Assembly: GCA_008632985.1 (NCBI GenBank)
Contig: QPGO01000016.1
Location: forward strand, 1-64,000
Origin: Psammoneis japonica
Lineage: Eukaryota
Length of the DNA stretch: 64,000 bases
Direction of reading: 5' to 3'
Shown: positions 1 through 37,714 of the stretch, piece by piece
Layout: every line of letters starts with the position of its first letter
Position numbering within the stretch: the stretch's first letter is position 1
The notes under the pieces: generated by a model
What the model was told of the DNA's origin: nothing
What the model saw: the letters and a program-made list of their open reading frames with translations, nothing else
The model's database searches: none
Position numbers and translations under genes: made by a program

Positions 1-1
1 C

Positions 2-793
2 AGCAAATCCAAACCCCAACGCCAAGTTCAACAGAGACAGAGAGAGCAGACAGCATCAATCGAGGCTGCAAAACGGAAAGCTTCGGAACAGCGCGACGAA
101 ATGTTCAAAGTCTGGCATCAACAACAACAAGGGAAAACAATTGGTGAGAGCTTTTCTTTTCAGGATTTTTTGCAATTGAAAGAGATGATTGAGAAACCAC
201 ATGTCGCCATGATTGATGGCTTCGAAGCAGAGGTGAACAGCAGTGGTGCAAACGCCATCAGTGTCGCAATGCGCACAACAATGTCGAACGTGCTCACCGG
301 TTTCAAGCGAAAGGATGCGGTTGCCGGCGCAGCGGGTGCTTCCAAACAACCGCCCAAAAAGAAGAGACGTGGAGCCGTTGTCAAGACAGCACGAGGTGAG
401 AATGCAATTGTTGCTGTGCGCCGTACCAAGACAAGGATGATCGAGGTGGGCGAGGCAGAGCAAATGAAACTGAAGGCTGACATCGCCAAGCAATCGAAAG
501 CGCTCGACAAGTTTGATGCACTTCGCTCCAGTGCGCCTCAGTACGGTGAGTGCGAGACGTTGAAGGGAGATGAGCTGAAGATCTTGATTCGGCTGGTTTG
601 TCCAAACGCCGGTTTGTTAGGGAAGAGCATTGAAGTAAAGAAGAAGGAGCTTAAAGAGCGGAAAATTACAAAAGAACATCTCGACTCTATTTACGTTCAG
701 AAAAGGCGCGATCTCGATGACCTCAAATCAAAGCTTCAGAACTCTTCGGCTGATAGTGATTCTGACGACGAAGACCAAGAAGAATTGCTTTAA
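2..793 (+). CDS. 5'-truncated ORF, Lys-rich coiled-coil with acidic tail; probably the C-terminal part of a DNA transposon protein
   Basis: Frame is open from the window start to TAA at 791-793. Has an NLS-like PPKKKRR and a DSDSDDEDQEE tail, and is followed by a terminal-repeat-like palindrome at 954-987. No TpA in 1-423. Confidence 0.45.
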   Translation, partial: SKSKPQRQVQQRQREQTASIEAAKRKASEQRDEMFKVWHQQQQGKTIGESFSFQDFLQLKEMIEKPHVAMIDGFEAEVNSSGANAISVAMRTTMSNVLTGFKRKDAVAGAAGASKQPPKKKRRGAVVKTARGENAIVAVRRTKTRMIEVGEAEQMKLKADIAKQSKALDKFDALRSSAPQYGECETLKGDELKILIRLVCPNAGLLGKSIEVKKKELKERKITKEHLDSIYVQKRRDLDDLKSKLQNSSADSDSDDEDQEELL

Positions 794-3920: not shown

Positions 3921-4661
3921 ATGATTTCTTTCTTACGCTGGATGATTCCCGTTGCGGTGCTAGGCATGTTGCACTCGCATTTGCCTGGATCGGTGGTTAC
4001 TGCGACCAGTCATGGCAATCGGTATGTACCTGCCAATTACAGCTCACTGCTCTGCCATCTTCCATCACAAATTTTGACTGACTTGCGTTTCGTCCCTTAC
4101 TTAATCAATCTTGTTCATTGTTTAGTCGAATGAGAAACTTGAGTGCTGTCAACATGGATCGTGAGTTGTCCTCTAGAGCTCCTAATCGCGAGTTGTCCTC
4201 TATGGGGGCTCCTTATCGTGAGTTGTCTTCTCGAGCTCCTTATCGCGAGTTGTCCTCTAGGGCTCCTAATCGCAAGTTGTCCTCTAGGGCTCCTAATCGC
4301 GAGTTGGAATCTTCGAGAGCACCTGGACGGTAAGTGCTCTTCGTGTTCAAATTACAGCGCAATGTTCTGTATACTCGTACTTTCACAACACATTGTTTCT
4401 GACTTGAATTCGGCCGTCAATCAATTTTGTTCATGTTTTAGTCGTAAGAGAAACTTGGCTGAGGTCAACAAGGGTCGCGAGTTGTATGCTTCGTCCAGGG
4501 CGCCCCGGCGGTGAGTTACAAATTCGAAACACAGCGTGAGCCCGCTGTTTTGTCTTGTTGTCCTATCACATTATAAACTCACACGGTCATAATATCATCT
4601 CTATTTTAATCAATACAGCCGGATGAGGAGGAGGAGGAATTTGAACGCCATCAATCATTAG
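3921..4661 (+). CDS. Secreted RXL-motif polyprotein (about 139 aa) with SSRAP[N/Y] peptide repeats; 4 exons
   Basis: Exons 3921-4021, 4126-4329, 4442-4510 and 4619-4661, all introns GT-AG phase 2. Spliced product: signal peptide, then RNL, REL/RKL x6, RNL, REL, RNL; ends NAINH*. Confidence 0.8.
4160..4324 (+). repeat. Coding tandem repeat, 27-30 bp unit x6 (RELSSRAPN)
   Basis: cgYgagttgtcctctagRgctcctWat units are directly visible. Confidence 0.95.
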
Positions 4662-4968
4662 AGTTTCCGCGTCACTACGAGTTGAGTTGTTCTCATACAA
4701 AGAGTACAACGCAAGACTAGAACGATACATCGACCGCACTGTCCTCACTTTGAAAGCGGGAAACAGTGCATGAGATTAGCAGTAGAACATTATTCGTAAC
4801 GATTTTAGAAAAAGACATTAACATCTGAAGAAACAATCAACACTAACGTGTTTGATGCCGTTCAAAATGATTGTCTCCCGTGTTGGTTTTTGTCTCTTAC
4901 TGTATGCAGTCACAGGCTTATAGACTGGACTTGTTGTCGGTCGTAATGTCATCTCAATGTCAATGCAG

Positions 4969-5023
4969 CCGGAGGAGGAGGAATGGGGAGAGGAGGAGGA
5001 GCTTGAATGCCATCAATCACTAG
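4969..5023 (+). pseudogene. Duplicated terminal exon of the RXL gene (RRRRNGERRRSLNAINH*); alternative or relic exon
   Basis: Homologous to 4619-4661, including the upstream intron end and 3' UTR, with an AG acceptor at 4967-4968. Confidence 0.7.
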
Positions 5024-5082
5024 AGCTCCCATGTCACAACGAAGAGAGTTGTTCTCACACACAAAGATCGTTGCCCCAGATA

Positions 5083-7709
5083 CTCTCTCCCAGCCGGGAG
5101 TGTCTCGTGCATTGGCGCCATTTGTTGCCACGCCATTCTGTGCTGTCTTGTGGATGCACCTCCCACCTTTCTTTGTTGTTTTGACTGCAGCCAGGCCTGT
5201 CTTGCCACACCTCGCAAATGGTGCCTTTTCATGAGGATCACATCCTCAGAGTTGTGGTCTGAGTTGCCATCAAGCTCACCGTGTGCACCAAAACTGGCAT
5301 GGCTTTTCCTCTCTGGTCCATCTGCTGCTCTTTTCCTCCTTGTTGGCCACATTGGGTCCTCTTTCACTTTCTTGTGGCTCATGGTTGTTGTGCTCCTCTC
5401 AGCATGTCCAATTTTTCTCCTTGGTTGTGTGCGGCACTCAGCTTCACATGTGGCCATCATTGTGTGCACCACGTTCTTGCACCGTCGGGAGTTGCCAGCT
5501 CTGTCTGACCAATGCTGGCCTCATTCACATGTGTTCACACCTGAAAGGTTCAGTGTCAAAGTGAAATTTTGCAACATGCTTTGGAGTTTTGCTGATTTTT
5601 CTGTGAATGCATGCCATCGCGACAACGAGTGCGTGGGGGAGATTCAAACTTGGATTTTGTTGTCATCATCAAGCAAAATGTGAGCACAGAAGTTGGGTGG
5701 GGCTGTGTTTGCAGAACTGATGTGACATTGGCCCTGCCTTGCATTCACTTCCCAAGCAACTTCACATGCTGGTCTGGCAGGATGGGAAACACCACGGAGC
5801 TGCAGAGGCACCCCCAAAGAGATGCCACAATGTGACAAAAATTGAAAACTCTCCACTCCCAACCCCATCTGTGCACAGTGAAATGGGAGCCAATTGCTTG
5901 GCACTGGTGATTCCAAGCATGGTCCTGCATCCCAATTGCTTCACCTGCTGGCAACCATTTTCATCATGGCAACATCACGAGTCTGTGTGTGGTTGTGGAC
6001 ATTGCATGTGCACCAGGCCATCTCCATGTGTTGCATCAACAGACTGGAGATTCTTCCACTGTGCCATGTGGTCATTGGAGTGCAGACAGCCAAGGCAGTG
6101 GCAGGACATTTGTTGGATGATTTGTGCAATGTGCAACTTGAACAACAGATCTCTGTTGGCTCTTGTGCAGTCACAGGCTTCCACAAATTTGACAGGGCCA
6201 GCCTCAAACACAATTGCCACTAAAAATGGTTTTCTCCTGCTTTGGCAGCTGGCACATTTGTGGTGGTGGCAGTCCCATGCTTCCAAATGTTGAAGATTTG
6301 ACTGGGCCACCCTCAGCAATCTTCCTTTCACCATGCATGGCTTCCACTGTGTGGCATGTTCCATGTGTCACATTCATCAAGAAGCACATTGGCGCCAATT
6401 TCTCATTCTTTTGCAGCACTTTTGATGGCTTTGGGTGCCATTTTGAGGCTCCTGCCATGCACAAGGCAGTGGCTTTTCAACTCACATTGTCGTGATCCTT
6501 GCCATGCCATCTGTGAACAACAAAGAAAACAATGATCAAACAAGCCACATTTCTTTGTCCCCACAAGGTTGACAATGCAACCTTGACCACCTGCTCAAGA
6601 ACACTGCCAACAAGGACCCCAACATGAGCTTTTTTGGACAAAGCTCCTCCTCCCAACAGAGTGCACACAGTTGGAAATCATCAACACAGAACACAGCAGT
6701 CAAGGTGCTTCAAGCAAAGTTTTTTGTTCCACAGCACTGGCTGCAATGGACAGAATGCCTCCTCTCATCATGCCAAGTTGCAGCCTGGTTGCAGCCACTC
6801 AAAAAGCAAACATTCTTTCTGGCGCTCTTTGTGGTGGCACTCTTTGTGCAGTTTTGAAGGGCACCAAATGTTGACAGAAGGTGGTGCTCATGTGTTGCCT
6901 TCAGCCAATGCAATCCAGGAAACCAAGAACTCCAGTTGAAGTTTTTTCCATGGCATGAGCTGCATTGGACAGAATGCTGCTTCTCACAGCACCAAATTGC
7001 AACCTGGCCACTGCTGTCAAAAAGGGAACACGACATGCCAAATGTCAACAGAAGACAGTTCCTGCCCTTTGTGATGACAATCTGGCAGCTCTCAATCTTT
7101 TGCTTTTTCCACATTGTCTGGCCACTCCATGCAGTTTGGATCTGAGGCTTGTGCGCATCTGATGCGACATTTTCTTGCACCCCATGTGCACCTGACAACA
7201 CAGCTTTGAAACTCAAGAGGGGACATTTTTCTCCAAACACAAACATTTGCTGCACACACCAGAGAACCTGCCAAATTGCATGGCTCAGGAACCCCGCCAC
7301 CCCAGGCTGGCTCTGGCACATGCTGTCCTTGCCCTGTCCACTTCAAGAAAAGAGAGATGTCAGTCAGAAAGCTCTGCCAGGCCACCAGGAAGAGAGAGAC
7401 AGTGGCTCTGTGCTTGCACGTCAGCTCAGAAAACCAAAATCTCCAACCAGAGTTTGTTTGACAACTGGCAAAATCATGTTGAGAATGGCATGGCCAGTGC
7501 TGCAGCTGCTGGTGCCAAGCGCTCGGACCAACCCTCTCAAAGCAGCGGCACAAGCTGCACCCCATGCTCCTGGTGCATGGCCGGCCACAGACCAAAGAGA
7601 AGGGGCACCACCACTCTCTCAGGTGTGGTCACTGTGAGAGGCATCTCATGATGATTCAGAGCAAAGCACGTCATGACAGTGCAGGCTGTTCATGAGCCAT
7701 TGCGGCGAT
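5083..7709. mobile_element. TpA/CpG-depleted island 1; decayed element, possibly PIF/Harbinger-like on the minus strand
   Basis: One TpA (6221) and about 30 CpG in about 2.6 kb. Minus-strand remnants WPDNVEKAK (about 7100-7125) and GVLGFLDCIG (about 6905-6935) resemble the DDE_Tnp_4 first-Asp region. The composition is certain; the family call is weak. Confidence 0.55.
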
Positions 7710-7841
7710 TAACGGTTGACGGTTTGTGCCTTTCGCCCTTGCTGCCGCTCTTGTTTAGCCCACTCGAGTCGCTCGAACAACACCGAATGATCGGGTTCCA
7801 CGCGCGATCACCAATTTCTTTTTCTGCATTTCACTATCGAA

Positions 7842-7870
7842 AGTACAGTTTTGGATGACAAAACTGCACT
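7842..7870. repeat. Hairpin, 12-bp stem and 5-nt loop, at the right edge of island 1
   Basis: AGTACAGTTTTG-GATGA-CAAAACTGCACT; the single stem mismatch is TA versus CA. Confidence 0.75.
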
Positions 7871-8101
7871 GTTAATCGCCGAAGTGATCGTGAAAACGTT
7901 TGACTGTCTTCTCTACAGAACTTGTCAAATGTCGTACTGTATATTAGATATTATGATCTACATAGTATATTTATTAAGAATCATATTTTTCATGTAATAT
8001 GGTATTGAATACTAATTAGTCATTTCTTTCCTGTATGTATCTATATATACAATATTAAATTCTGGACATTCCTCAGGTACAGAGAATGACTCCGCTTTTT
8101 T

Positions 8102-8164
8102 TTTGGCGGTCGCCTCGCCACAAAATGCCCGTCGCCAAAAACGCAAAAAACCTCGGCCGCCAAA
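8102..8164. promoter_or_regulatory. Inverted pair of E2F-consensus-like sites (TTTGGCGG) upstream of the second RXL gene
   Basis: TTTGGCGG at 8102-8109 and CCGCCAAA at 8157-8164, about 65-130 bp before ATG 8230. Confidence 0.3.
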
Positions 8165-8229
8165 CTTCGTCGCCTCACAATTTTGCAAAGCACGGGGCAA
8201 CAACAACACACAGCACTCGAACTTTTACC

Positions 8230-10337
8230 ATGTTTTTGTTACGCTGGATTGCTCCCATTGTGGTGCTAGTCTTGATGCGTCCTGGAACGATGGTTGCTGC
8301 GGCGGGCGGCAAGATCAAGGGAGCGAAACCGGACGACGTCAACAAGAATCATCGTCAATTGACGGATGGTTTGATCGACAAAATACTTTGCCATTTTGGA
8401 CATTCAACGTGCAAGACGAAGAAATCCAAGAGATCCAAGAAGAAGAAGAAGTCCAAGAAGAAGAAGAAGAAGAGCAAAGGCAAGTACGGGGAAGAAGAAA
8501 TGTACGACTCTCTTCCCGATGCCCCTCCAATGTCGGGCGAGGAGCTTGTGGCCTTCATGCACGAATTGATGGGCAGCCTTGGTGCTGAACACGAAGGCCT
8601 CTCCCCTGGTGCCAGCGAACCTCCTCCAACGCAAGACGAGATTACGGCCATGATGGAAGAATTGATGGCCAACATTAGTGCTGAACTCGAAAGCTTCGAA
8701 CCTCCATCGTCGGGCGAAGAGCTTATGGCCATGTTGAGCGAATTGTTGTCTGGTATTCCTGAGGATGTTAGTCTTCCCGATGATCTTCCGGATGATCTTC
8801 CCGATGATCTTTCGACTCGTCCACCTTCGACCCGAGCTCCATCGAGCAGAGCTCCATCGAGCAGAGCTCCGTCTCCCGAAGGTCGACGGTGAGTAGTTGT
8901 GTTTTCTCACAATATCTATATCTACAATGCAACGTGACGCGTTCTTTTTGTTGTTTCTCGACGTGCGACTCTCACGCATCGGTGGTTTTCATTTTTTTAT
9001 TATTTTGTACAGCCGCATGAGGAAGAGAAAGTTGGCTCTTCCCAATTCCCCTCCCATGTCGGGCGAGGAGCTGCTCAGACGCATGAGAAAGAGGAAGTTG
9101 TCCGATTCTTATCCAACGTCGGGCGATGAGCTTATGGCCTTGATGAACGAATTGATGGGCAGCCTTGGTACTGAACTCGAAAGCCTCTCCCCTGGTGGTG
9201 CCCCCTTGGATGACATTGAAGCTGCTGTTCCTGCAATGTCGCCCGAGGAGATTACGGCCATGTTGGAAGAAATGATGGCCAGCATTGAAGCTGTTCCGGA
9301 AATGTCGCCCGAGGAGATGACGGCCATGGTGCACGAATTGATGGCCAGCATTGGTGCTGAAGTCGAAGGTTTCGAACCTCCAACGTCAGGCGAGGAGCTT
9401 ATGGCCATGTTGAGTGGATTGTTGTCTGGTACTCCGAGGAACCTAGTCTTCCCGATGATCTTCCCGATTCTTCGACTCGTCCGCCTTCCTCCAGAGCTCC
9501 GACGCCCGACGGTCAACGGTGAGTAGTTGTTGTGTTTTCTCACAATATCTACAATGCAATGCGACGTGTTCTTTTTGTTGTTTCTCGACGTGCGACTCTC
9601 ACGCATCGGTGGTTTTCACTTTTTTTATTATTTTGTACAGCCGCATGAGGAAGAGAAAGTTGGCTCTTCCCAATTCCCCTCCCATGTCGGGCGAGGAGCT
9701 GCTCAGACGCATGAGAAAGAGGAAGTTGTCCGATTCTTATCCAACGTCGGGCGATGAGCTTATGGCCTTGATGAACGAATTGATGGGCAGCCTTGGTACT
9801 GAACTCGAAGGCCTCTCCCCTGGTGGTGCCCCCTTGGATGACATTGAAGCTGCTGTTCCTGCAATGTCGCCCGAGGAGATTACGGCCATGTTGGAAGAAA
9901 TGATGGCCAGCATTGAAGCTGTTCCGGAAATGTCGCCCGAGGAGATGACGGCCATGGTGCACGAATTGATGGCCAGCATTGGTGCTGAAGTCGAAGGTTT
10001 CGAACCTCCAACGTCAGGCGAGGAGCTTATGGCCATGTTGAGTGGATTGTTGTCTGGTACTCCCGAGGAAGCTAGTCTTCCCGATGATCTTCCCGACGAC
10101 GATGATGATGCTATTTCGACTCGTCCGCCTTCCTCCCGAGCTCCATCTTCCAGAGCTCCGACGCCCGACGGTCAACGGTGAGTAGTTGTTGTGTTTTCTC
10201 ACAATATCTACAATGCAATGCGACGTGTTCTTTTTGTTCTTTGTCGACTTGGAACTCTCACGCATTGGTGGTTTTCAATTATTATTTGTACACACAGCCG
10301 CATGAGGAAGAGGAACTTGGATGCCATTCAAAACTAG
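8230..10337 (+). CDS. Secreted RXL protein with a poly-Lys/Ser cluster and three Met/Glu-rich acidic modules (silaffin-like biosilica protein candidate); 4 exons
   Basis: Exons 8230-8888, 9013-9518 (1-bp deletion near 9434), 9641-10177 and 10298-10337, all phase-2 GT-AG introns. Signal peptide, RQL, KTKKSKRSKKKKKSKKKKKKSKGK, RRMRKRKL sites and SSRAP repeats. Confidence 0.78.
8889..10297 (+). repeat. Tandem intron+exon duplication, about 630-660 bp unit
   Basis: 9013-9430 is nearly identical to 9641-10058, and the three introns are homologous. Confidence 0.95.
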
Positions 10338-10897
10338 TAGGCGTCTGCTCACACGAGTGGTAGTAGTAGTAGTATTTTTTAGAAGAGAAAGGATCGATTG
10401 CTCGACCATGTTTATTTGAAAAGGAGGGCGAGTGCAAGAGTTTTGTTTACAGAGTTTTTTACGACCACGTCGTCGTAGATGTTATAATTATAAGAGATTA
10501 TTGTTGTTATTTCGAGAAAAATAGTCATCATTGTGCTTTCGTTTGTAAATATATAAACCTATACAAGACTTGATGGGGCCCCCTAATGATTGTTGCATTT
10601 CAACAGGATACAATGGTGCTGTCATTATTAGTTGCTCTCGAAGCTCCTACTTCGTACCCTCGAAGTCGTCTCGTTTCTGGCAAAAAGTGAGCGTGAAGAT
10701 CTTGGCGAAAAGTAAGCGAACATGAATTTATCTACAGACACAAATAAATGTATACGTGGTGAAATCTTTGCGATCTTTTGGTGTCACGTAGAAGCCCCGT
10801 ACGATTCTACGTTCGAATCCGGGATTGTCGCCAGCGACATCATCAACGCACATTCATCACGCACTTTCATTTTTCTGGGGCTTGTTTACATGGGCCA

Positions 10898-13800
10898 ATG
10901 ACAACCGACATTGAAATGGCAAGCGGGGAACACACTCCGTTGCTAGCATCGTCTTCTCAACAACAACATGATGACTCGTTTCGTCAGCAAGTTTATGATT
11001 TTCTCGAAGCCAAAACAAAACGAGGTCGTGCATATGAAGCCTTTACGTTTGTGCTCATTGTAGTGAATGTGTTGGCCTTTATTTGTGGCACGCTCTTTGT
11101 CGAGCAGTACAATGACGCTCCGTGGGCCTCACGTAAGCATGGTATTTGTGGTAATGTCTGTGATGCATTGTGGTTTGGAAATTATCCCGACAATGGTTTG
11201 GGCTTTTTGAAATTGGGAACCACGAGTCTTCTCGAGATTGTTACCGTTTTCATCTTTTCCGTCGATTATCTATGTCGCGTATGGTGTGCCGATTTGGAAG
11301 ATGCACGCTTTCAAGGTTTCTGGGGACGTATCCGGTACTTGCCCACCTTTTACAGCATTGTGGATTTGGCGAGTACAGTGCCCTTTTATATCGATGCCTT
11401 TGTGTTGAAGGAGTCCGATATATTTGCGTCGCAGTTTTTGCGTATGTTTCGTGTCTTTCGCATGATGCGGGTGGAGGGACGCTACGATACAGCCCTCACC
11501 ATGTTTGATGATGTCTATCGTGAACAAAAGGGTATTTTGGGAACGGCACTCTTTGTGGGATTCACCACGTGGACTACCGTGAGTGCGCTGTATTACATTG
11601 TGGAACGCAGATCACTCGACATGATTTATTGTGGAGCGGCTCCGGAGTATTGTGGTGATGCGGATGAGATTGATACGCAACTGTGTGTCATTGATTCGTG
11701 GGGTATTACGGATTGCAGTGCGGCGGGTTGTCCGCCTTCAGACGAGTATCCCGAGCCCTGCTACAATTTGTTCAATTCCATTCCCATGGCATCCTACTAT
11801 GCGCTCTTGAATCTATTTGGGGAATTCCCACTCATTGAACAGCATTCGGCGCCGGTAAAGTGGTGGGGACCTTGACGGCCGTTGTGGCGGTAGCCGTCTT
11901 TGCGCTTCCTGCTGGTATTATTGGCAATGGCTTTGAAGATTTGATTGCACGCAAACGGCAAGAACGGCAAGAGTTGGACGATGAGACTTCCCTGGAAGAA
12001 GATGAATCACCCTTGACGCTTGGATTCTATGCAGATGACGGAACGAAACGGGGACGTCTTTACAACTTTTTACACGCTCAAGTCTCGTATGGATCGGGAT
12101 TCTTTGATCATTTCATCAATGTTCTCGTTTTGGGTACCGCGATTAGTTTCATGATTGACACGGTTGCGGGGATTTCGCCCTTGACACATGTCTGGCTCGA
12201 CTTGTTTGAACTTGGTGCCGTCATGGTCTTTACTGTCGAGTACAGTCTTCGCGTCTACAGTGCCAAGGAAGATCCAAAGTATCAAGGCCCCTACGGACGT
12301 TTCAAGTACATGTGTTCCTTTCTAGCCGTTGTGGATTTGCTTTCGGTGGCACCCTATTGGATTGAGTTTCTCCTGACGAGAAGCGTCGTCACGTCGACGT
12401 CGGATTCCTCGTCTACGTGGAGTACCTTTGTCAAGTGCCTTCGGTTGCTTCGATTGTTGCGGTTTGAAAAGTACACGCACGCCTTTACTTCGTTTGATGA
12501 AGTCATTCGAAGCAACTTGGACGTGGTTGGCCGTGACGGCATTTACGGCAATCTTGTTTTGGGTCTTTTTCGGTGCCATCTTGTACTTGACAGAGCGCAA
12601 CAATCCCGATTCCGAAATGGCGGAGAATTACAACACGGTCCCCAACAGCATGTGGTTGACGCTGTTGAATTTGTCGGGAGAATCACCCCTGTCGCAGTAC
12701 AGTGGATACGGAAAGTTCATTACGGGATTTCTAGGGTTGTGTGCCACGGGTGTGTTTGGTATTCCCATTGGTGTGCTTGGAGCGGGATTTGAAGAGATTG
12801 TCGAGGATGAAAACGAAGACGACGAGGATGAATTGGAACACGAGGACGGCTTGTGGGATTCCGAAGGAAGGGGTGGCACTTCTTTGAGAATTCGTGCTAT
12901 AACTTTGTCAATGGCATTGGATCCAAGGCAGCCATGATTTTTGAGCTGTCCATTTATGCTCTTATTTTTGCAACCGTCGCGGTGGGTGTCTGGCAGACGG
13001 TGGAGGGTCACGAAGAAGACTTTCATGCGGTCGAGTGGTTTGCCGTGGTTGTGTTTACCTTTGAGTACATTATTCGTTTCATTGGTGTGCCGGCGGATCC
13101 ACAGTTTAACTACATTCAGAACAACTTCCTGGCGCGCATCCGTTTCATCTTTTCCTTTTACTCCATTATTGATTTGCTGGCCATTTTGCCCTTTTATTTG
13201 GCAGTCGCAATGCCCAATTCATGGGTCGATCAACATGACGAGTACCTTCGAATGCTTCGTCTTTGCGTCTCGTCAAGCTTGATAAGTACGTTCCATCCAT
13301 TTCTCTGGTGGACGATGTGCTTCGTCTCAAGCGAAACAGTTTGGCTGTTGCTTGTTTTGCGGCCGCGACCCTGTGGATTCTCTTTGCTTCCATGATGTAT
13401 CTTTTCGAGCACAAAGACGACTACAACTCGATTGACAACGTGCCCGAATATGGATGCGATACGAATTGTACCATGGCGGATCGATTCCAGGATTACTTTG
13501 ACAGCATGACGTATACGGGTGTGCACTTGACGGGCGATTATCCCATTATTACATACTCGTGGCCGGCAAGGTTTTTGAATTTCTTCATGGTGATTGCCGC
13601 AGTCGGTGTCGTTTCCGTGCCTTCAGGTTTAGTGGCGAGTGGATTTACTAGTATCTGCCAAAGCAAGGCTCAGCGTCGACGTGGTGAACGGCCACGAGGC
13701 CGAGCAGGCGACGATTGGTACGAGTTTCGCCTTGCCGAGTTGGATGGAGTCGATCCTCCGCCGTCTCGTTTTGGACCACAAGTGGATCGGTGGCAGGTGG

Positions 13801-14714
13801 CAGTCAACGAATTCCTCAACGGCGTTGAAGATGAAGACGGATACACGAGGTACCCGCCGTATGGGTACTGCATGCGTGTCTTTATGTTCACAGTGATTAT
13901 TCTCAATGTCGTGGCCGTTCTTGCTGAGAGTATCCCTGCCATTGACAAATACGTTGGAAACGAGAGCGGGAACTTCTTTGATGTGTTTGAAGCCTTCTCG
14001 GTGTTTGTGTTTGCTGGTGAATACATTCTTCGGTTGTTTTGCGCTCCCAAGAATCGCGAGGCGCTCTATTCAACTTATGTTTATGCCACAACCTTCTTTG
14101 GTATTGTTGACTTCTTGTCGACAGCTCCCTGGTTCATCCAAGAGCTTCTAATCGCGACGGGCGTCATCAGTCCAGCGGATGATACTGCAAGGATCTTTCG
14201 AATCTTTCGTGTTTTCCGTATCCTGCAGCTCGAGGACTTTGTTACGGCATTTAGCAAGCTCGACAACGTGTTCAGGGCCTCCAAAGATGTACTCAAGGCG
14301 ACAGGACTCATGGCAATCATTATTTGGGTAGGTTGTGCAGCACTTTTTTACATTTTCGAGGAAGATAACCCCAACTGGCGTTCGTGTGATGATTCCATCC
14401 CACTCAGTAGCGACGATCCCGATGTTCCTGGATGCTATGATTTCGCATCGACTGCAGCATGCAACGAGTTTTATCCTGGCATGTGCTCGCAGGCTGCTTT
14501 CACAAACATGCCAAATTCGCTCTATTATGTGGCTGTGTTTCTCGGCGGGGAGTGGGGTGTCATTGACTTTACGTGGCCCGGAAGGATGGTATGCCTTTTC
14601 CTTTGCGTCGCAGGCATTGCCGTGTACGCCATTCCGATCGGAACACTCTTTGACAGTTTCGGGGCGGTGCTTGGAATGTGTGAAGATGAGGACGAGGAAG
14701 GTGAAGAAGACTAA
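10898..14714 (+). CDS. Four-repeat (4x6TM) voltage-gated cation channel built from Kv-like domains; four 1-bp frameshifts
   Basis: Four S4 segments (LRMFRVFRMMR, LRLLRLLRFEK, LRMLRLLRLVK, RIFRIFRVFRIL) and four Kv-type S6 segments (FALPAGIIGNGF and equivalents). Frameshifts near 11851, 12526, 12883 and 13263. Confidence 0.88.
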
Positions 14715-24945: not shown

Positions 24946-25056
24946 GTTGCTGCTGCTCTCTTTTTTGAAAAAAAGACGACGTTAGAGTTTATTGCGTCGG
25001 CTTGTTGCGCTCATCTTCATCATTGCGACCGCGTGATGATGTACCGGTACTGTGTA

Positions 25057-25980
25057 TGAATGAACACTCTTTGTTTTCCGCCCGTTTGTCGTCCGGCTCG
25101 AAATTTTTGTCGTGCGTGCATGGGACAGCACCGGTGACATGCAGGGTCAATCAATGTTTGCTTTGTCCAGTTGCTCCAACAGCATCCTCTCCTGAAAATG
25201 CCCAAGTTGGAGCCATGCCCTCTGGGCTTCGTGCTTCCTTGGTGTGCTGGCATGCAGCGCCGCGAGGGGTGCTGCACGGTGTCTCACTGTGTTGCTCAGT
25301 GGATGTGCGCCGCAGCATGCTCACCATTTGTTGCAGAATGTTCAAGCGAGCACAGCCAGAAGTGCCCTCAAATTGGAGTGTGCATGAGAATGGCAGCCAA
25401 TGTTTTGCAAGCTGGCGTGCTCAATGCCAACCCTCCTGAAAACCTTCAAAAGTTGTGTGAGATTGAGGACAACACCTTGGCTGCAGCTTCCTGTGCCCCA
25501 CACTCCTCTTGGCTGCTGGTTTTTAAGATCCTCTGCAGGGGCCTCTTTGGGTGCTTTTGTTTTGCACCAGCCATGGTGTGGTCATTTCTGAACCCCTCCC
25601 AACACCGCCGGCAGCAGATTTGGCTGTGCAGCTCAAGCCAGCACACCAAGCATTGATGGGTGAGAACTTTGATGGCAGAGTGTAAAATGACAATCCTTTG
25701 CCTGCCAAGTTGGACAGGGTGCTCTGACCAAGTTGTCCCCATTGATCCCGGGAAGAAGCTGGAGGCTCGAGTGGCTGACGCACCCATTTGGAACAGAGCA
25801 AGCACCACATGCTGGTGGGATTGTCTCAGATTTGCGGGCACCACGAGCAATTGAACAGATCAATGTTTGCCAAGTGATGCCATTTTGGAGCTGCAGATTT
25901 TCTTCCCAACACCTGCGTTTCCCTCATTGCTCCTGGTTTGATTTGAATTTGTTTGGCCAGGCCAGCCAGCGCTGCTGCAG
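25057..25980. mobile_element. TpA/CpG-depleted island 2; decayed repeat of unknown family
   Basis: Only 2 TpA (25524, 25683) in about 920 bp. CpG is kept at the edges and reduced in the centre. Confidence 0.5.
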
Positions 25981-26173
25981 AGTAGAGCAGCGAGCAGAGC
26001 GAGCTGTCCACAGGTCAAGGAAGCACATGCGACCATGTCTGAATCAAGCGCGGCGGCCCCAACTATCTCCCGCCAACTCGTCGTCAAGGGATGACGGATG
26101 ACCGCGATCAGCGATGAGTGAAATGCGACGCTGACAATGATTTTAAAGCTCAGTCGAAGCATAAAACGATGCC

Positions 26174-32290: not shown

Positions 32291-32388
32291 GAAAGTCTTA
32301 GTCGAGCGAGTCAAAGTGCAGTCGAATGGGTCAAATGCGTTTTTGTTTTTGTTTTTGTGCGACGATGAGGGAGGGGCTTAGCACTTTA

Positions 32389-35300
32389 CTGTTCGTCCAC
32401 TGTGCTTCCGCATCAGTCGACAACAGCTGGGGATCTGCAATTGGCAATTTGTCGAAGAACAGGCTCAAGGTGGTGCAGGTGCAAAAGTGGGCCAGATTCC
32501 ATGCAAATGGAAACTTGGTGTGTTTTCCACACAAATTGCCAAAGCCACCTCGCCAACTTGAACCCTCTCCTCCCGGATGATGGAAACCTGAACATTTCAA
32601 ATGACAGAGTGTCCAGACTGCTCAATTGCACTCTCCTTGACATGTTTCCATGCATTTTTGGAGACATGCGCCAAATCCAATCAGAAAGGTGCCAAAATTG
32701 CGACGCTCGAGTTTGTCAGAGCTGTGGCAAATGACGGTGTTGCCCATGTGCTCAAATGCTGTCACGCCAGCTGGAGATGTTCAATGTCGAGAGTCCAAAG
32801 CCAAAGCACAAAGCACAGCTTGCAAAGCAATCTGTTGCTGACACTGCACTGGTGACAACAACAACAAGCACAAGCCACACCAGCGGCACTGGGTTGAAGA
32901 CAAACATGCATGTTGACTGAAGCTGCGAACTGCAGAGCTCACACATGGAATTCTGCAGGCAAATGTCACAAAAAGTCCCGCCTGGGGCTGGAGCACATCA
33001 TCTGCACTCTGCATTTGTGACAGAGCTGGGCAAAAACTTGAGATGCTGTGAACAGCAACATCTGAGCTTGTTCACTCAAAACAATCAACAATCAACTTGA
33101 CAGCGATTGCTGCTCAGTGCTGCTGGCACCCCTTCTGCCACAGCATCGCAAAGCCAACTCGTGTTCCTTCTCCAGGAGAGCATCTTGTGAGAATGAGAAA
33201 AAGCTGGGCATGCCAGAGATTCAGCATGCTGTTCAACCATGTTCTGCAGAGGGGTCATGGGGTGGGGTGCCTTGTCTCCCAGCACTGCAGCTTTGATGCA
33301 GCACACATGGCACCACACACACAACACCATGCAGAGAGTGATTGTGGTTGTTGACAAAACCTCTGTGTTGCTGTGTGCGCCACCTTTTGAACAAAATCAC
33401 TCCCTCTGTGGTGCTGAAGCCATTGTGGGGTGGTGTGTCTTTTCAGCAGCCAGGTTTTCAAAGAATGTGCAAATGGGCAGTGCAGCATTTTCAGCTGCCC
33501 TGACTTGTCTCAAAGAAGAGGGTGCAGGGGTGCATTGCTCTCAAGCAAAAACAAGCACAGCAGCTGCTGTCTGCTGTGCATGCATGCACAACATCATGCA
33601 GCCAACAACCTGCACACATCACAGTGAGATGTCACGCCACATCAATGTCAGATCTTGTGTTGCAACACTGACACAGGTCCACAGCATCCTCAACTCAAGC
33701 AAGGCTGGTGGCCAGTGTGCCCATGCTGCAGCGGAACTTTGACCCAGCAAAAACCCAAACATTTGTGGCTGTGTCTTTTTTGTGACAAAGCATGCTGAGT
33801 GATGGCTCCTGACAGCCCATGGAGCACTTCAACGGCTGTCCCCTGTGGCCCATGCAGCTCTCTCTCTCCTTCAGGCTGTGCTCACGAGGTTGCACCTGCT
33901 GCAAACAACACACACTGAGCACTTTGTCTGTTCTCCCCACTGTGTGTTTGCACATGCCAGACAGCAGCACATGCCAACATGTTTGTGCCAGCCATCCACA
34001 TCAGTGCACCATGATGTGCCTCTGTGCACAGGACACATTGAGGCCATCACCATGGACAAAGCGCTTTGTCCAATCACAACAGACACAACATTGTGCAACT
34101 TTGAAACTTGATGACATTTTGTCAAGTGAGGTGTTCAAGCAAACCTTGGCTGGCCACCTTTGAAATGAAAGTTGGCCGGGCCAGCTTTGGAGTGAAAGTT
34201 GTCAGGCCTGGCTGACCAACTTTGGAGTGAAAGTCAGGCGAGCCAATGGATGAGAAAAGGAATCTCAGTGGCCTTGACCCAGGTTCAAGAAAAACACAAT
34301 TCTCTTTGTTTTTTTTTAACCTGAAATGCCTCAACAGAGCTTTCTGTGCAGGCACATGCTTGCTGACAAGCTCTGAGCAGCCAAAGAGCTTTGCCCCATG
34401 AGATGACAACAAAAGGCAACACCGCTGCCACTTGCTCAGTTGTCCATGATGACAATGTGGTCAACCAACCCCAACAATCAACAACAATGGAAAGATCTGG
34501 CATCTGCACATTGCACCATGAAGAGGCATTTTGTGATTGATTTCCAAGACAGCACTCAGGGCAAAATCGCTCATCAGGGTGGGCCAAAATGAACAGAAAG
34601 CTTTCTGTTGCTGCATTCTTTCACAGCAAACTCATGCTCACACTTGTTGATTTGGTTGCAACATGACCCTCTGAGAGACCAGAATGTGCTGCATCATGGT
34701 GAACCCCTCTTTTGGCTGTCGCGTTGCTTGCCCAAGCTTCATTTCCTGGCATTGAAGAAAAGCACATGGTTGAAATCATGCAGAAAAACAATTTTTGCTG
34801 GACTCAACAGGAAGAAACTTTGTCTTAGAATCACCCGCTGTTGCAACCATCCACATCATCAGAAAGCACTTTTTCTTTGGCTTTTCAGCCATGTGATTTT
34901 CTGAAAAAGTTGAAAAAAGTCAACAAACCTCCTTTTCTGATTCGCTGGTTCAGATCCAACTTCAAGACAGGACAAGCACCAGCTCCTTCCTCAGCCACTG
35001 CTTGTGTGTCTTCTTCATGGCATGTGTGTGGCATGGATGGTGTGACTCAGTTGTCAAGAGTCTTGTGGCTGATGTCCTTGCACAAAATGCACCTCATTGA
35101 ATTGTCAAACTCTTTCTGCTGCAATGACCCCCCATCATGGACAAACTGCTGCAGCTCTTGTCTTGGTGGCCTGCCCAGGCACTTTTCCCACTTGCTTGCC
35201 CTTCTCTTGGTCTTTGCACTCACTGCACAATGCGGGCAGATGACTGCAATTTAACTCATCTTGCTCAGCAAATTTGGCCTCTGGGTTTGACGAGCCCGCT

Positions 35301-37460
35301 GTTTCAACACAAGTCCAAATGACCAATGATGACTCACATCTGATGTTGAAGAAGCACGCTTGCAGCCTGCAAGAAACGGAGTCAAGAAATCTCAAACAAA
35401 AGCACCCCAGCTGCAGACAGCTCTTCTTCCTTTCCTCCTTCACCTTCTAAGACCCAGTGCTCAAAATGCGAAACTGTGAAAAAAGGCATGCTCATGAATG
35501 ACAACTTGTTGCACCTCTGCAAAGATGTCAACAAAGTCATCACAAACCTCTCAAAATGACAAAGATTGTGCATGATGGCAAAGACACTCAGCCTGTGGCA
35601 AGGGCACCACAGACTCCTCCCGCCATGGCACCCACCTGTGGATGCATCATCTGCAGATGCAGGGACAGCCAAAAACGCTCAAATTGTCAAATTGTGCAAG
35701 CACTGGATCTGGGGACATGCCATGCATTCAAAAACACACCCGGGGATTTGCAAGTGCAGCCCCACACACAGAGATTGGCGAGCACTCCTTGAGACATGAG
35801 GGAGCCTGCTGCATGATCAAGGAAGATTGCACCATCAAGCAGAAACTCCTTGATGGGTTGTCTCTGTCTTTGAGCACAGATGGCACATCATGGTGCTGGC
35901 TGCCAGCCATCTCTGCTTTGTGGCATTTGCTGACAGAGCTGAACAAGAAGTCAACACTGGTGTGTCTGAGCTCCACTCCAAACAGCGGCACATGCTTTTC
36001 CCCTGAAACAATGAAAAAACAACAAGTGGCTGCAAATGTTGGCTGCAACCACTGTGACCTCAATGTGTCCTGTGCACTGTGCACAGAGCAGGCACATGCT
36101 GTGCAAGGGCCAATGGCACAAACATGCTGGCGCGCGTCTGGCACGCACCAACACACATGCAGTGGGTGAAACAGACAATGTGTTCAGTGTGCATTTTGCA
36201 CACAGATGCAACCTCATAAGAAGAGCCATAGACTGCAAAGAGCAGATGATGTTGAAGTGTCCTGTGGACTGCCAGAAGCTGTCTCTCAGCACAACTTGCT
36301 GTGAAAAAGACATGGTCACAAATGTTTGAGTCTTTCAGTCAGAGTGCCTTTCCAGCATGAGCGCTGACCAACCTTGAGTCAAGGATGCTGCACACCTGCT
36401 GCTCCATTGCAACACAAGATTTTTCATCCCACTGTGTTGTGTGCCATCATTGTTGGCTCCATGTTTTGTGTGCATCATGCACAGCAGCTGCTGTTTTTGT
36501 TTTTGCTTCAGAGCAATCATGTGCCACCCCTCTCTTCTTTGAGACAAAACAAAGCAGCAGCCAGCAGCTGAAAATGTTGCACCACTTGTGCACATGTTTG
36601 AAACTAAGCTGCTCAAGAAACAGACCACACAAGGCTGCTGCGCCACAGGTGGAGGGTGACTTTGTTTGAAAGGCAGCACATGCAGCAATTTCGAGGAGGT
36701 TTTGTCAGAAATCACAGTTGCCAGACATGTTGTGTGTGGTGCCATGTGTGTCACATTAAAACCACAGTGCCAGGAAACAAGGCAACCTGCCACAAATTCC
36801 TTTGCAGAACATGTGTCAACAGTGCACTCTGAACCACTGTAATGTGCCCCGCTGCCAGCTTGTTTTGACCATGAGAAAGCAAAGTGCAGGTGCTCCTCAC
36901 CATGGACAAAGTGCTGCCAATCAAAACAAATGCAACACTGTGCAGCACTGTGCAGCTTTGAGACTTGATGACATTTTGTCAAGTGACATGTTGTCCACAC
37001 TTTTGTTTTGACAAAAAGCAAGCATTCTTCAAAAATGATTTTTTGTGCCATCCAAGGAACAGGGAAAGTTGCTTGGAAGGTTGGCGCAACAAGATGGCAA
37101 AAAACAAACACAGCAATGCTGTGTTTTGGTCAAAACTCAACAGCCACTTGATGTTTGTTGTTTGTCATCATCATTGCTGGAGCTTTGTCAATGGAATGCT
37201 TGGCGCTCTTTCCATGTTCAAGAGCGTCAGCCAAAAATTGGATCCACATCAAGGCCCTTGCAAAGCCAACACAGATCACTGCACCAGATTTGCTCAATTT
37301 CAAAGTCAACATCTTGATCATCAGTTTGAGTTCACATCTGCCAATTGCTTCAGACAATCGCCATGTGAGCAGGGTCTCAGGCATTTGTGCACCATGAACG
37401 TTGATGGCCCCACCTGTCTCAGAAAGGCTGTTGAAGAGCCAAGGACGGCAGGGCAAATTT
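32389..37460. mobile_element. TpA/CpG-depleted island 3; nested or rearranged decayed repeats
   Basis: About 8 TpA in about 5.07 kb; contains diverged internal inverted and direct duplications. Confidence 0.65.
33200..36990. repeat. Diverged inverted repeat (about 33200-34050 versus 36050-36850) plus direct repeat (34046-34130 versus 36897-36990)
   Basis: CACACATGGCACCACACACA and GTGCACAGGACACATTGAGG are shared in inverted orientation. ACTTGATGACATTTTGTCAAGTGA is identical in direct orientation. Confidence 0.8.
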
Positions 37461-37714
37461 TACCAAAAATGTGTGTGCCAAACTAATTCCATTTAGGCGC
37501 TAAAGATTCAATTTGATGTGGCAACCCCATGCAGGTCATTCCGACTCACTGCAGCATCTAAAACACTCCAAGACTTGCCGTGTTGTAAATTCATGCTTCT
37601 CGGATGCCCTGGCCATGACTACATCAATATAAAATGATTTGTCTACAAAATCATTCTCCACGTGACACCAAAGAGAGGATCCAGTGACGGTGCTTTCTTC
37701 CACTTGGCGGCTAC

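What the first reader, a model, noticed from the sequence alone, without database searches (positions are those of the whole stretch)
5083..7709. Near-total TpA erasure with CpG depletion: candidate repeat-targeted 'inverse RIP' hypermutation system
Seen: by manual scan there is 1 TpA in about 2,620 bp (about 160 expected at equal base frequencies) and about 30 CpG, with abundant TG/CA and sharp edges. ORF translations inside have no Tyr and excess Cys/His. Established: 5mC deamination explains CpG to TpG/CpA, and fungal RIP creates TpA; neither removes TpA. Inference: a second, stronger process converts TpA to TpG/CpA (A to G after T) in decayed elements. Candidates are a TadA/ADAT-like DNA adenine deaminase or pol-eta-type error-prone repair coupled to methylated DNA. 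The effect would destroy Tyr codons, TATA boxes, poly(A) signals, branch points and TA/TAA transposon target sites. I know of no description of this but could not search.
Basis: partly seen in the sequence, partly recalled or inferred. Interest (0 to 1): 0.93.

Follow-up and report, generated by a model that had tools for sequence, protein, structure and literature searches.

The report
TpA-erased, CpG-poor islands in a diatom
A 2.6-kb stretch of non-coding DNA in what looks like a diatom genome has lost almost every TA and most CG dinucleotides to TG/CA, which is the footprint expected of a TA-specific hypermutation of silenced DNA so far reported only in a 2026 preprint on an unrelated alga.

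Summary
Window 5083-7709 holds 1 TpA (164 expected from base composition), 31 CpG (o/e 0.19), and CA/TG at o/e 1.92/1.85. Two more non-homologous islands (25055-25983, 32387-37461) and a TA-free, CpG-normal stretch (1-424) show the same pattern.

It looks mutational rather than compositional:
- In each island the missing TA plus missing CG equals the CA+TG excess.
- In a diverged internal repeat, coupled CA<->TG double changes occur at 16% of Y-R steps against about 4% of other steps.
- One CA/TG double polymorphism separates the window from an independent read set, which reproduces the island.

AA and TCY contexts are untouched, and TG roughly equals CA in every 250-bp bin. That argues against pol-eta, APOBEC-like or one-strand RNA-editing signatures.

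CpG loss is graded and always nested inside TA loss.

The core idea is no longer undescribed. A 2026 bioRxiv preprint measured TpA->TpG/CpA hypermutation in Bigelowiella natans. This window's genes are diatom-like, so this would be a second lineage. The enzyme and the targeting are untested here.

The parts
5081..7710 (.). Island I1, the finding: TA-erased, CpG-poor, CA/TG-rich non-coding DNA, bounded by the TAs at 5081 and 7710. It may start near 4945.
   Evidence: Pfam found nothing above its curated cut-offs in the island ORFs. No Rfam match.
6221..6222 (.). The single surviving internal TpA of I1.
   Evidence: No difference from run X1 is reported at this site.
6508..6509 (.). Adjacent double transition: CA in the window, TG in the allelic X1 contig.
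   Evidence: This is what is expected if an unstable TA or CG resolved differently in two lineages.
5624..7577 (.). Four sites (5624, 5767, 6027, 7577) where the window has CpA/TpG and the X1 contig has CpG.
   Evidence: CG count is 31 in the window against 35 with the X1 letters.
5002..6170 (.). Part of I1 with short segments that have multi-copy relatives (90-95% alike) in run X1.
   Evidence: Summed depth is 208-230 in bins 5002-5168 and 5837-6003 and about 450-475 at single positions, against 56-60 in the flanks. Of the 45 records laid, 33 were 90-95% alike.
25055..25983 (.). Island I2: 2 internal TAs. CpG o/e is 0.63 in the left part and 0.24 in the right. It lies between two divergent ORFs.
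32387..37461 (.). Island I3: 5 kb, 9 internal TAs, CpG o/e 0.16 in the core.
33214..34046 (+). Arm of a diverged inverted repeat inside I3. Its partner is 36055-36839 on the opposite strand (67% identity).
   Evidence: One search found the repeat. Searches give its substitution pattern.
36055..36839 (-). Second arm of the I3 inverted repeat.
1..424 (+). I0: a TA-free stretch with normal CpG, cut by the window start. It lies in the 5' part of ORF 2-793.
   Evidence: 0 TA, CpG o/e 0.99, missing TA 15.0 against CA+TG excess 17.0. The ORF has 5 weak homologues, best E 1.6e-7.

Best explanation
The island is decayed, non-coding, partly repetitive DNA in a diatom-like genome that has been subjected in place to two context-specific transition processes.

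1. A very strong process, confined to the island, converts TpA to TpG or CpA (A:T to G:C at TpA, hitting both strands equally). It has run to saturation.
2. A weaker, graded CpG to TpG/CpA decay of the kind caused by 5-methylcytosine deamination in methylated repeats, nested inside the TA-erased domain.

The first process is the same kind of event that was measured de novo in Bigelowiella natans in 2026.

Shown here: the composition, the closed dinucleotide budget, the coupled CA<->TG changes, the strand symmetry, the strict TpA and CpG specificity, and that TA loss can occur without CpG loss.

Inferred, not shown:
- That the chemistry is adenine deamination on DNA by an ADAT2/TadA-like enzyme. 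From recalled knowledge, the natural substrate of these enzymes is an A preceded by U. I put this at about 0.35-0.4 on its own.
- That the targeting follows silencing of foreign or repeated DNA.
- That CpG loss reflects CpG methylation.

The confidence given here is for the mutational, island-confined TpA erasure of the B. natans kind, not for the enzyme.
For: 1. Dinucleotide budget against the window's own background:
- I1: missing TA 98 + missing CG 134 = 232, against CA+TG excess 239.
- I2: 28 + 40 = 68, against 64.
- I3: 196 + 241 = 437, against 477.
- I0: 15.0 + 0.4, against 17.0.
CpG loss alone cannot pay for the excess.

2. In the I3 inverted repeat, both-position transitions occur at 34 of 212 Y-R steps (16%). 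The other step classes give 9/211, 7/186 and 7/152. The enrichment holds under three alignment scorings. Of 86 transitions in Y-R steps, 68 are in coupled CA<->TG pairs.

3. An independent contig set (run X1, word depth 56-60, the same as the flanks) reproduces the island. No allelic difference creates a TA. It differs by a CA>TG double change at 6508-6509 and by four CpG vs TpG/CpA sites.

4. Three islands that share no homology with each other, even in a purine/pyrimidine alphabet, show the same state.

5. Specificity:
- AA is not depleted (ratio 1.06-1.15).
- The TCY fraction is 0.404 against 0.399 in non-coding background.
- TG roughly equals CA in every 250-bp bin, and the runs test gives z = 0.24, 0.25 and -1.01.

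6. Nesting: no 500-bp window is CpG-poor with normal TA. CpG o/e is 0.35-0.36 at the I1 edges against 0.12 in the core, while TA is 0 right up to the edges.

7. Precedent: in B. natans mutation-accumulation lines, 230 of 231 mutations in the two viral regions were A>G or T>C. All of these fell on TpA, at about 6e-7 per site per generation. The genome holds 124 TpA-depleted, CpA+TpG-enriched clusters (I read the abstract, Results, Discussion and the dinucleotide Methods). By that paper's cluster criteria, window 5001-8000 and 33001-38000 qualify.

8. Diatom methylation is mainly at CpG and lies on repeats (passages read in PMC5124317, and PMC2806351).
Against: - No de novo mutation, no less-mutated homologue and no outgroup copy was available, so polarity (TA ancestral, TG/CA derived) is inferred and not observed.
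- The coupled CA<->TG changes cannot tell a TA ancestor from a CG ancestor.
- All short pieces of other family copies seen in X1 loose ends are also TA-free, which fits an intrinsically TA-free family equally well.
- X1 may come from the same isolate as the assembly, and its library type is not on record.
- No viral or transposon domain was found: only 3 of 104 ORFs gave weak hits below Pfam's cut-offs. 'Foreign DNA' is therefore unproven.
- Away from Y-R steps the islands are richer in C/G than the local non-coding DNA (C fraction at Y-Y steps 0.463 vs 0.396, computed). The two processes do not explain this.
- Methylation, small RNAs and the enzyme could not be examined.
Confidence: 0.78

Rival explanations
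1. Same mutational outcome, different chemistry. Thymine in TpA, not adenine, is enzymatically modified (for example 5-hydroxymethyluracil-type oxidation by a TET/JBP-like enzyme). It then mispairs with G or is misrepaired, giving T>C. Because TpA is its own reverse complement, this reads the same as A>G on the other strand.
For: Sequence alone cannot separate A>G from T>C at a palindromic dinucleotide. TG and CA are equally frequent. It is recalled, not checked here, that 5-hydroxymethyluracil in dinoflagellate DNA is enriched at TpA and TpC.
Against: No TpC-linked signal: TCY fraction 0.404 vs 0.399. No such modification is known to me in diatoms (recalled). The preprint's authors favour adenine deamination.
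Confidence: 0.12
2. Intrinsic composition. The islands are insertions of mobile or viral DNA whose functional copies already avoid TA and CG, so nothing was erased in this genome.
For: Every fragment of other family copies seen (30-letter loose ends at 5137, 5215 and 5972) is also TA-free. The edges are sharp, like insertion boundaries.
Against: - Three non-homologous islands plus a gene segment share the state.
- Coupled CA<->TG changes arose after an internal duplication and between two near-identical haplotypes or strains.
- A coding element with 0.02% Tyr and no TAA/TAG is implausible, and 0 of 104 ORFs reached a Pfam cut-off.
- CpG loss is graded within the island.
Confidence: 0.06
3. RNA-level editing. 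ADAR-like A-to-I editing of double-stranded transcripts of retroelements, fixed by reverse transcription and reinsertion.
For: From recalled knowledge and the preprint's Discussion, ADARs prefer U before the edited A. I3 has long inverted arms that could form dsRNA.
Against: - A reverse-transcribed edited strand would give TG on one strand only. Here TG roughly equals CA in every 250-bp bin and the runs test is flat.
- AA, ADAR's second-best context, is not depleted.
- No reverse transcriptase remnant was found.
- I1 has no long inverted repeat.
- In B. natans the mutations arise in resident single-copy DNA.
Confidence: 0.04
4. Base-calling or polishing artefact on heavily modified DNA, with modified A in TA and 5mC in CG misread.
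For: The pattern hits exactly two palindromic dinucleotides that could carry symmetric modifications. The sequencing technology behind the window is unknown.
Against: - Logan contigs of run X1 cover 4000-8893 in two pieces (4,057 and 3,247 letters long in all, word depth 56-60). They differ from the window at 3 and 16 positions and keep the TA-free state.
- It is my inference that 31-mer contigs of that length and depth need accurate reads.
- The same spectrum was seen with Illumina data in B. natans.
- Coupled CA<->TG differences between old repeat arms are not what a miscall would give.
Confidence: 0.03

Closest known systems
TpA-specific local hypermutation of integrated viral DNA in Bigelowiella natans (Mettrop et al., bioRxiv 10.64898/2026.01.13.699255, 2026)
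   Same: TpA>TpG/CpA with CpA+TpG enrichment in discrete genomic clusters that are mostly unannotated. The window passes that paper's cluster criteria. The specificity is strictly for TpA.
   Different: - The host here is diatom-like (stramenopile), not a chlorarachniophyte.
- Erasure is saturated (Rho_TpA 0.00-0.07 in core 1-kb windows), against 0.45 for their NCLDV region.
- The islands are also CpG-depleted.
- No viral genes are recognisable here.
- No de novo mutations were observed here.
Fungal repeat-induced point mutation (RIP)
   Same: A context-specific transition hypermutation confined to particular DNA segments, leaving sharp compositional islands and wrecking coding capacity.
   Different: RIP is C>T, mainly at CpA, and so creates TpA. 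Here TpA is removed and CpA/TpG accumulate. Dependence on duplication and on a sexual cycle was not tested here.
CpG decay of methylated repeats (5-methylcytosine deamination), as in vertebrates and in methylated diatom repeats
   Same: CpG o/e of 0.12-0.2 with TpG/CpA excess in repeat-like DNA. Diatom methylation is at CpG and on repeats (passages in PMC5124317).
   Different: It explains only about 134 of the roughly 239 excess CA+TG in I1 and does nothing to TpA. CpG loss here is weaker than TA loss, graded, and nested within it.
tRNA adenosine deaminases TadA/ADAT2-ADAT3, and the DNA-editing activities reported for some of them
   Same: A>I with a pyrimidine (U/T) just 5' of the target matches the TpA context. 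This is recalled knowledge. The preprint names an ADAT2 homologue as its candidate. A search listing's abstract notes a U at -1 preference for fungal A-to-I editing (PMC11156358).
   Different: No such gene could be looked for, because no genome is held. Activity on chromosomal DNA in algae is unproven. How an enzyme would be confined to islands with edges sharp to within tens of bases is unknown.

Membership tests
B. natans-type TpA hypermutation clusters (2026 preprint) | [quoted passage not shown] | tested here: met
   5001-8000 (3 windows) and 33001-38000 (5 windows) pass. 25001-26000 passes as a single window. The criteria were read.
B. natans-type TpA hypermutation clusters (2026 preprint) | Mutations are A:T>G:C and fall only on TpA | tested here: inconclusive
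   No de novo or polarised data were available. Indirect support: the closed TA+CG vs CA+TG budget, coupled CA<->TG changes, and AA and TCY unaffected.
B. natans-type TpA hypermutation clusters (2026 preprint) | Local rate orders of magnitude above the rest of the genome | not testable with these tools
   Only an equilibrium estimate is possible, and it is an inference. (CA+TG)/TA is 617 to 1-2 in I1 and 1,212 to 10 in I3, against about 3.4 in the background (counts). That implies TA removal about 35-180 times more effective than in the background. The same ratio for CG is about 20.
B. natans-type TpA hypermutation clusters (2026 preprint) | Targets are of foreign (viral or transposon) origin | tested here: inconclusive
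   0 of 104 island ORFs reached a Pfam cut-off. An island ORF has no homologues. Parts of I1 are multi-copy in X1.
Fungal RIP | C>T at CpA (or another CpN) producing TpA excess | tested here: not met
   TpA o/e is 0.01 and CpA o/e 1.92, the opposite of RIP.
5mC-driven CpG decay | CpG depletion with matching TpG/CpA gain | tested here: met
   CpG o/e is 0.19. It accounts for 134 of 232 missing dinucleotides in I1. It does not account for the TA loss.
5mC-driven CpG decay | The region is CpG-methylated | not testable with these tools
   No methylation data. Diatom repeats are CpG-methylated in other species.
Pol-eta WA or ADAR-like (U>A 5' neighbour) signature | Depletion of ApA as well as TpA. 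For edited retro-copies, a one-strand bias as well. | tested here: not met
   AA island/background ratio is 1.06-1.15. TG roughly equals CA per 250-bp bin, and runs z is about 0.
AID/APOBEC-type cytosine deamination (TpC context) | Loss of TpC in contexts untouched by the TA and CG processes (TCY vs TTY) | tested here: not met
   TCY/(TCY+TTY) is 0.404 in the islands against 0.399 in non-coding background.

The most novel reading that the evidence does not exclude
TpA erasure is a widespread, ancient genome-defence layer of SAR-clade algae (now chlorarachniophytes and diatoms). It acts on resident double-stranded DNA through a symmetric, dinucleotide-reading mechanism analogous to CpG methylation plus deamination. 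It strikes first and independently of CpG methylation, as shown by TA-free but CpG-intact segments such as 1-424. It is roughly ten or more times stronger than 5mC decay. It can also reach into host genes. Because TA-containing signals (Tyr codons, two stop codons, TATA-like elements) vanish irreversibly, it would be a one-way inactivation system distinct from RIP, APOBEC and ADAR.
Probability: 0.3. Interest if true: 0.85.

Novelty: new member of a known kind. Interest (0 to 1): 0.7.

Why it matters
If the reading is right, a hypermutation process known from a single 2026 preprint in one rhizarian alga also operates in diatoms, and here it has gone to completion. Diatoms are a dominant, genetically tractable group of marine primary producers.

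That would turn an isolated curiosity into a candidate general defence of SAR algae against invading DNA. It would also give three practical handles:
- A simple sequence signature (TA o/e near 0 with a closed TA+CG to CA+TG budget) for finding old targets in any genome.
- The observation that TA loss precedes CpG loss and does not need it, which constrains how the system is targeted.
- A reason why a large share of diatom repeats is 'unclassified': this mutation removes Tyr codons and two stop codons and shifts copies apart, so homology searches fail.

A natural TpA-specific A:T>G:C editor acting on chromosomal DNA would also interest base-editing research.

Tried and rejected
- Whole genome: not held. 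Genome-wide scans and a deaminase search were therefore impossible.
- Coding content: Pfam on 18 island ORFs at E<=1 and on 104 stop-to-stop ORFs of 60 aa or more at E<=0.01. The second run gave 3 weak hits (Zn_ribbon_TOP3B, DUF6830, Hfx_Cass5), all below cut-off and about the number expected by chance.
- Rfam: 0 matches in the window.
- Homologues of island ORF 5721-6290: none.
- Deaminase lead: island ORF 7196-7648 hit SNAD4 (an AID/APOBEC-like family) at E 0.069 and carries HVE...26 aa...PCSWC. Rejected as chance for three reasons. The motif appears in 12.7% of 300 composition-matched simulations. No deaminase appeared among solved structures (one unrelated hit, E 1.6). The Atlas recognition score was 1125, in the range of shuffled sequence.
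- An intact relative inside the window: no 36-letter purine/pyrimidine match from I1, I2 or I0 to anything else.
- Relatives elsewhere: a YR-degenerate 30-mer from 5886-5915 found 0 metagenome matches.
- Islands in other DNA: 0 of 80 metagenome loci found with a PCMT alignment had a TA gap over 454 bp. Few of these loci are diatoms, so this says little about the breadth of the process.
- Terminal repeats or target-site duplications at the I1 edges: nothing convincing.
- Strand-coordinated tracts: none.
- TpC signature: none.
- Taxonomy by Atlas: unhelpful.
- Expression: no RNA holder listed.
- Runs X2 and X3 laid nothing.
- Tyr-to-Cys/His traces in ORF 2-793 against its 5 weak homologues: uninformative.
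- Literature: six searches and term look-ups in three diatom papers found no report of TpA erasure in diatoms. The only description found was the B. natans preprint.
Full report
**Observation**

Window 5083-7709 (2,627 bp) holds 1 TpA against 164 expected from base composition. It holds 31 CpG (o/e 0.19), 321 CpA (1.92) and 296 TpG (1.85). The whole window has TA 0.53, CG 0.90, CA 1.27 and TG 1.24.

The two TA-free gaps, 1,140 and 1,489 bp, compare with a median gap of 15 bp and a 99th percentile of 143 bp. At the background TA rate, ln P is about -50 and -65.

The right edge is abrupt: 0 TA in 7481-7680, then 5, then 29 per 200 bp. An intact TA-rich stretch thus lies within about 200-400 bp of the border. 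On the left, 4945-5080 has only 1 TA in 136 bp, so the island may start somewhat earlier than reported.

The amino-acid remark is correct but derivative. Six-frame Tyr is 0.02% against 2.48% in the background, with Cys, His, Trp and Gln raised. Of 115 stop triplets on both strands, 113 are TGA.

**More islands in the window**

- 25055-25983 has 2 internal TAs.
- 32387-37461 has 9 internal TAs.
- 1-424 has none and is cut by the window edge.

The islands share no similarity with each other in ordinary BLAST. In a purine/pyrimidine alphabet that ignores transitions, I1, I2 and I0 match nothing else in the window. The one exception is a diverged inverted repeat inside the third island (33214-34046 vs 36055-36839, 67% identity).

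**What the islands contain**

- No Rfam family matched anywhere in the window.
- 18 island ORFs were scanned at E<=1 and 104 at E<=0.01. None reached a Pfam cut-off, and the few weak hits are the number expected by chance.
- An island ORF has no homologue among 5.8 billion proteins.
- A weak hit to an AID/APOBEC-like family, with an HxE...PCxxC motif in ORF 7196-7648, was followed up and rejected. The motif arises in 12.7% of composition-matched simulations, and neither solved structures nor the Atlas supported it.

**Host**

The surrounding genes are ordinary, long, largely uninterrupted eukaryotic ORFs: ion channels, a nucleoside transporter, fucosyltransferases, PCMT and an aminotransferase.

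Every named relative of two of them is a diatom:
- Seminavis, and MMETSP records whose truncated names begin Coscin-, Dacty-, Synedr- and Probo-.
- Nitzschia, Seminavis, Mayamaea, Fistulifera, and a record beginning Asteri-.

The best identities are only 66-67% and 43%. The host is therefore diatom-like with no close sequenced relative in the collection. It is not Bigelowiella natans.

**Is it real?**

One public run (X1, coded) holds 87% of the sampled words. Its Logan contigs cover 4000-8893 in two pieces at word depth 56-60, the same depth inside and outside the island. They differ from the window at 3 and 16 positions.

Twelve of these positions lie in the island. Eleven are transitions, and none creates a TA. 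X1 may be the same isolate's other haplotype, and its library type is not recorded, so independence is limited. I infer, however, that 31-mer contigs of this length and depth need accurate reads. That makes a modified-base miscalling artefact unlikely.

Short pieces of 5002-6170 attract further contigs that are 90-95% alike: 33 of the 45 records laid fell in that band, and summed depth reaches about 475. Part of the island therefore belongs to a dispersed repeat.

**Is it mutational?**

There are four lines of evidence.

*The budget closes.* Relative to the window's own background, the figures are:

| Island | Missing TA | Missing CG | Sum | CA+TG excess |
|---|---|---|---|---|
| I1 | 98 | 134 | 232 | 239 |
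| I2 | 28 | 40 | 68 | 64 |
| I3 | 196 | 241 | 437 | 477 |
| 1-424 | 15.0 | 0.4 | 15.4 | 17.0 |

CpG decay alone leaves about 40% of the excess unexplained.

*Coupled changes in the I3 repeat.* Per-site transition frequency is the same in and out of Y-R steps (0.20 vs 0.22). Inside Y-R steps, though, transitions come as coupled CA<->TG pairs. These occur at 34 of 212 steps, against 9/211, 7/186 and 7/152 in the other step classes, and the result is stable under three scoring schemes. This is what is expected if TA and CG are unstable intermediates that resolve at random to TG or CA after the duplication.

*A live example.* The window and X1 differ by exactly such a double change at 6508-6509. 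Four further sites have CpG in X1 and TpG/CpA in the window.

*Unrelated sequences share the state.* These include the 5' part of ORF 2-793, which has weak but full-length homologues.

**What kind of process?**

- It is strictly TpA-specific. AA is not depleted (island/background ratio 1.06-1.15). This speaks against a pol-eta WA signature and against ADAR-like neighbour preferences.
- TCY, a context that the TA and CG processes cannot alter, is unchanged (0.404 vs 0.399). This speaks against a TpC-type cytosine deaminase.
- TG and CA are balanced in every 250-bp bin, and their order is random (runs z = 0.24, 0.25 and -1.01). Both strands are hit alike with no long one-strand tracts, which argues against edited RNA copied back into DNA.
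- CpG loss is a separate, weaker layer. It is graded (o/e 0.35-0.36 at the I1 edges, 0.12 in the core). It is absent in 1-423 (0.99) and mild in the left part of I2 (0.63), although TA is zero in all of these.
- No 500-bp window anywhere is CpG-poor with normal TA.

An equilibrium estimate can be made from the counts. It is an inference that assumes equilibrium and equal back-mutation rates. It puts TA removal at roughly 100-600 times the ordinary transition rate and CpG removal at about 20 times. The latter is the usual figure for methylated CpG. The former is in the range of the rate elevation measured in B. natans.

**What is known**

A bioRxiv preprint (10.64898/2026.01.13.699255) reports mutation-accumulation lines of B. 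natans. I read the abstract, Results, Discussion and the dinucleotide Methods; the supplements were closed. Its findings:
- 230 of 231 mutations in two integrated viral regions were A>G or T>C, and all of these fell on TpA.
- The rate was about 6e-7 per site per generation.
- Only some of the lines were affected.
- The genome holds 124 TpA-depleted, CpA+TpG-enriched clusters, mostly unannotated.
- An ADAT2 homologue is proposed as the candidate enzyme.

By its criteria, the present window holds two clusters. Its main text never mentions CpG or diatoms.

Six literature searches and look-ups in three diatom papers found no report of this in diatoms. Diatom methylation is at CpG and on repeats, and 40% of the Cyclotella cryptica genome is 'unclassified repeats' (passages). 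This fits the CpG layer, and also the idea that such mutation hides repeat identity.

**Verdict**

It matches a process that has since been demonstrated experimentally in another alga, so it is not categorically new.

What is new here:
- The host lineage is diatom-like.
- Erasure is saturated.
- CpG decay is nested, separable and weaker than the TA loss.
- TA erasure is evident inside an apparent host ORF.

Still open: the enzyme (an ADAT2/TadA-like DNA adenine deaminase is my leading guess, about 0.35-0.4, with a thymine-modification route as the main alternative); the targeting signal that gives borders sharp to tens of bases; the origin of the islands; and why non-Y-R positions in the islands are richer in G+C than the neighbouring non-coding DNA.

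Noticed in passing
window 1-424 (ORF 2-793, + strand): A TA-free stretch with fully normal CpG (o/e 0.99) lies inside an apparently real ORF. The ORF has 5 weak full-length homologues of unknown function. The TA-free state ends abruptly at 424, inside the ORF. The stretch is cut by the window start, so it may be the end of a larger island.
   Followed up: partly
window 33214-34046 and 36055-36839: A diverged (67%) inverted repeat of about 0.8 kb with about 2 kb between the arms, inside the 5-kb island. If transcribed it could form a long hairpin, a possible trigger for silencing. The element type was not identified.
   Followed up: partly
window 4905-4919 and 6166-6180: An exact 15-base direct repeat, with one copy about 160 bp outside the island and one inside. 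The flanks do not align. Its meaning is unknown.
   Followed up: no
window 7196-7648 (+): An island ORF with HVE...26 residues...PCSWC and a sub-threshold Pfam hit to an AID/APOBEC-like family. Judged to be chance, given the Cys/His-inflated composition.
   Followed up: yes
islands I1-I3, non-Y-R positions: C fraction at Y-Y steps is 0.463 in the islands, against 0.396 in non-coding and 0.426 in coding background. After a purine, the A fraction (against G) is likewise lower than in the background. The TA and CG processes do not explain this. It could be ancestral composition or weak off-target A:T>G:C.
   Followed up: no
window 7881-8080: A very TA-rich stretch (29 TpA in 200 bp) just upstream of ORF 8086-8892 and only about 170 bp beyond the island edge, left intact. 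It shows how tightly the erasure is confined.
   Followed up: partly
window 8059-10181 (+): Three adjacent ORFs with repeated acidic modules (SGEELMAMLSELLSG-like, PDDLPDD, SRAPSS repeats). The second and third are near-duplicates. X1 differs here by a 9-base insertion in an AAG-rich tandem repeat.
   Followed up: no
window 10763-14714 (+): Three consecutive ORFs with Ion_trans domains. This is probably one multi-domain voltage-gated cation channel gene interrupted by introns or frame changes.
   Followed up: no
window 5926-5927: A second X1 contig (1,561 letters, depth 30) matches the window only over 5897-5962 and is probably a paralogous copy. It has TA where the window has TG. This is the only site seen where another copy keeps a TA.
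   Followed up: partly
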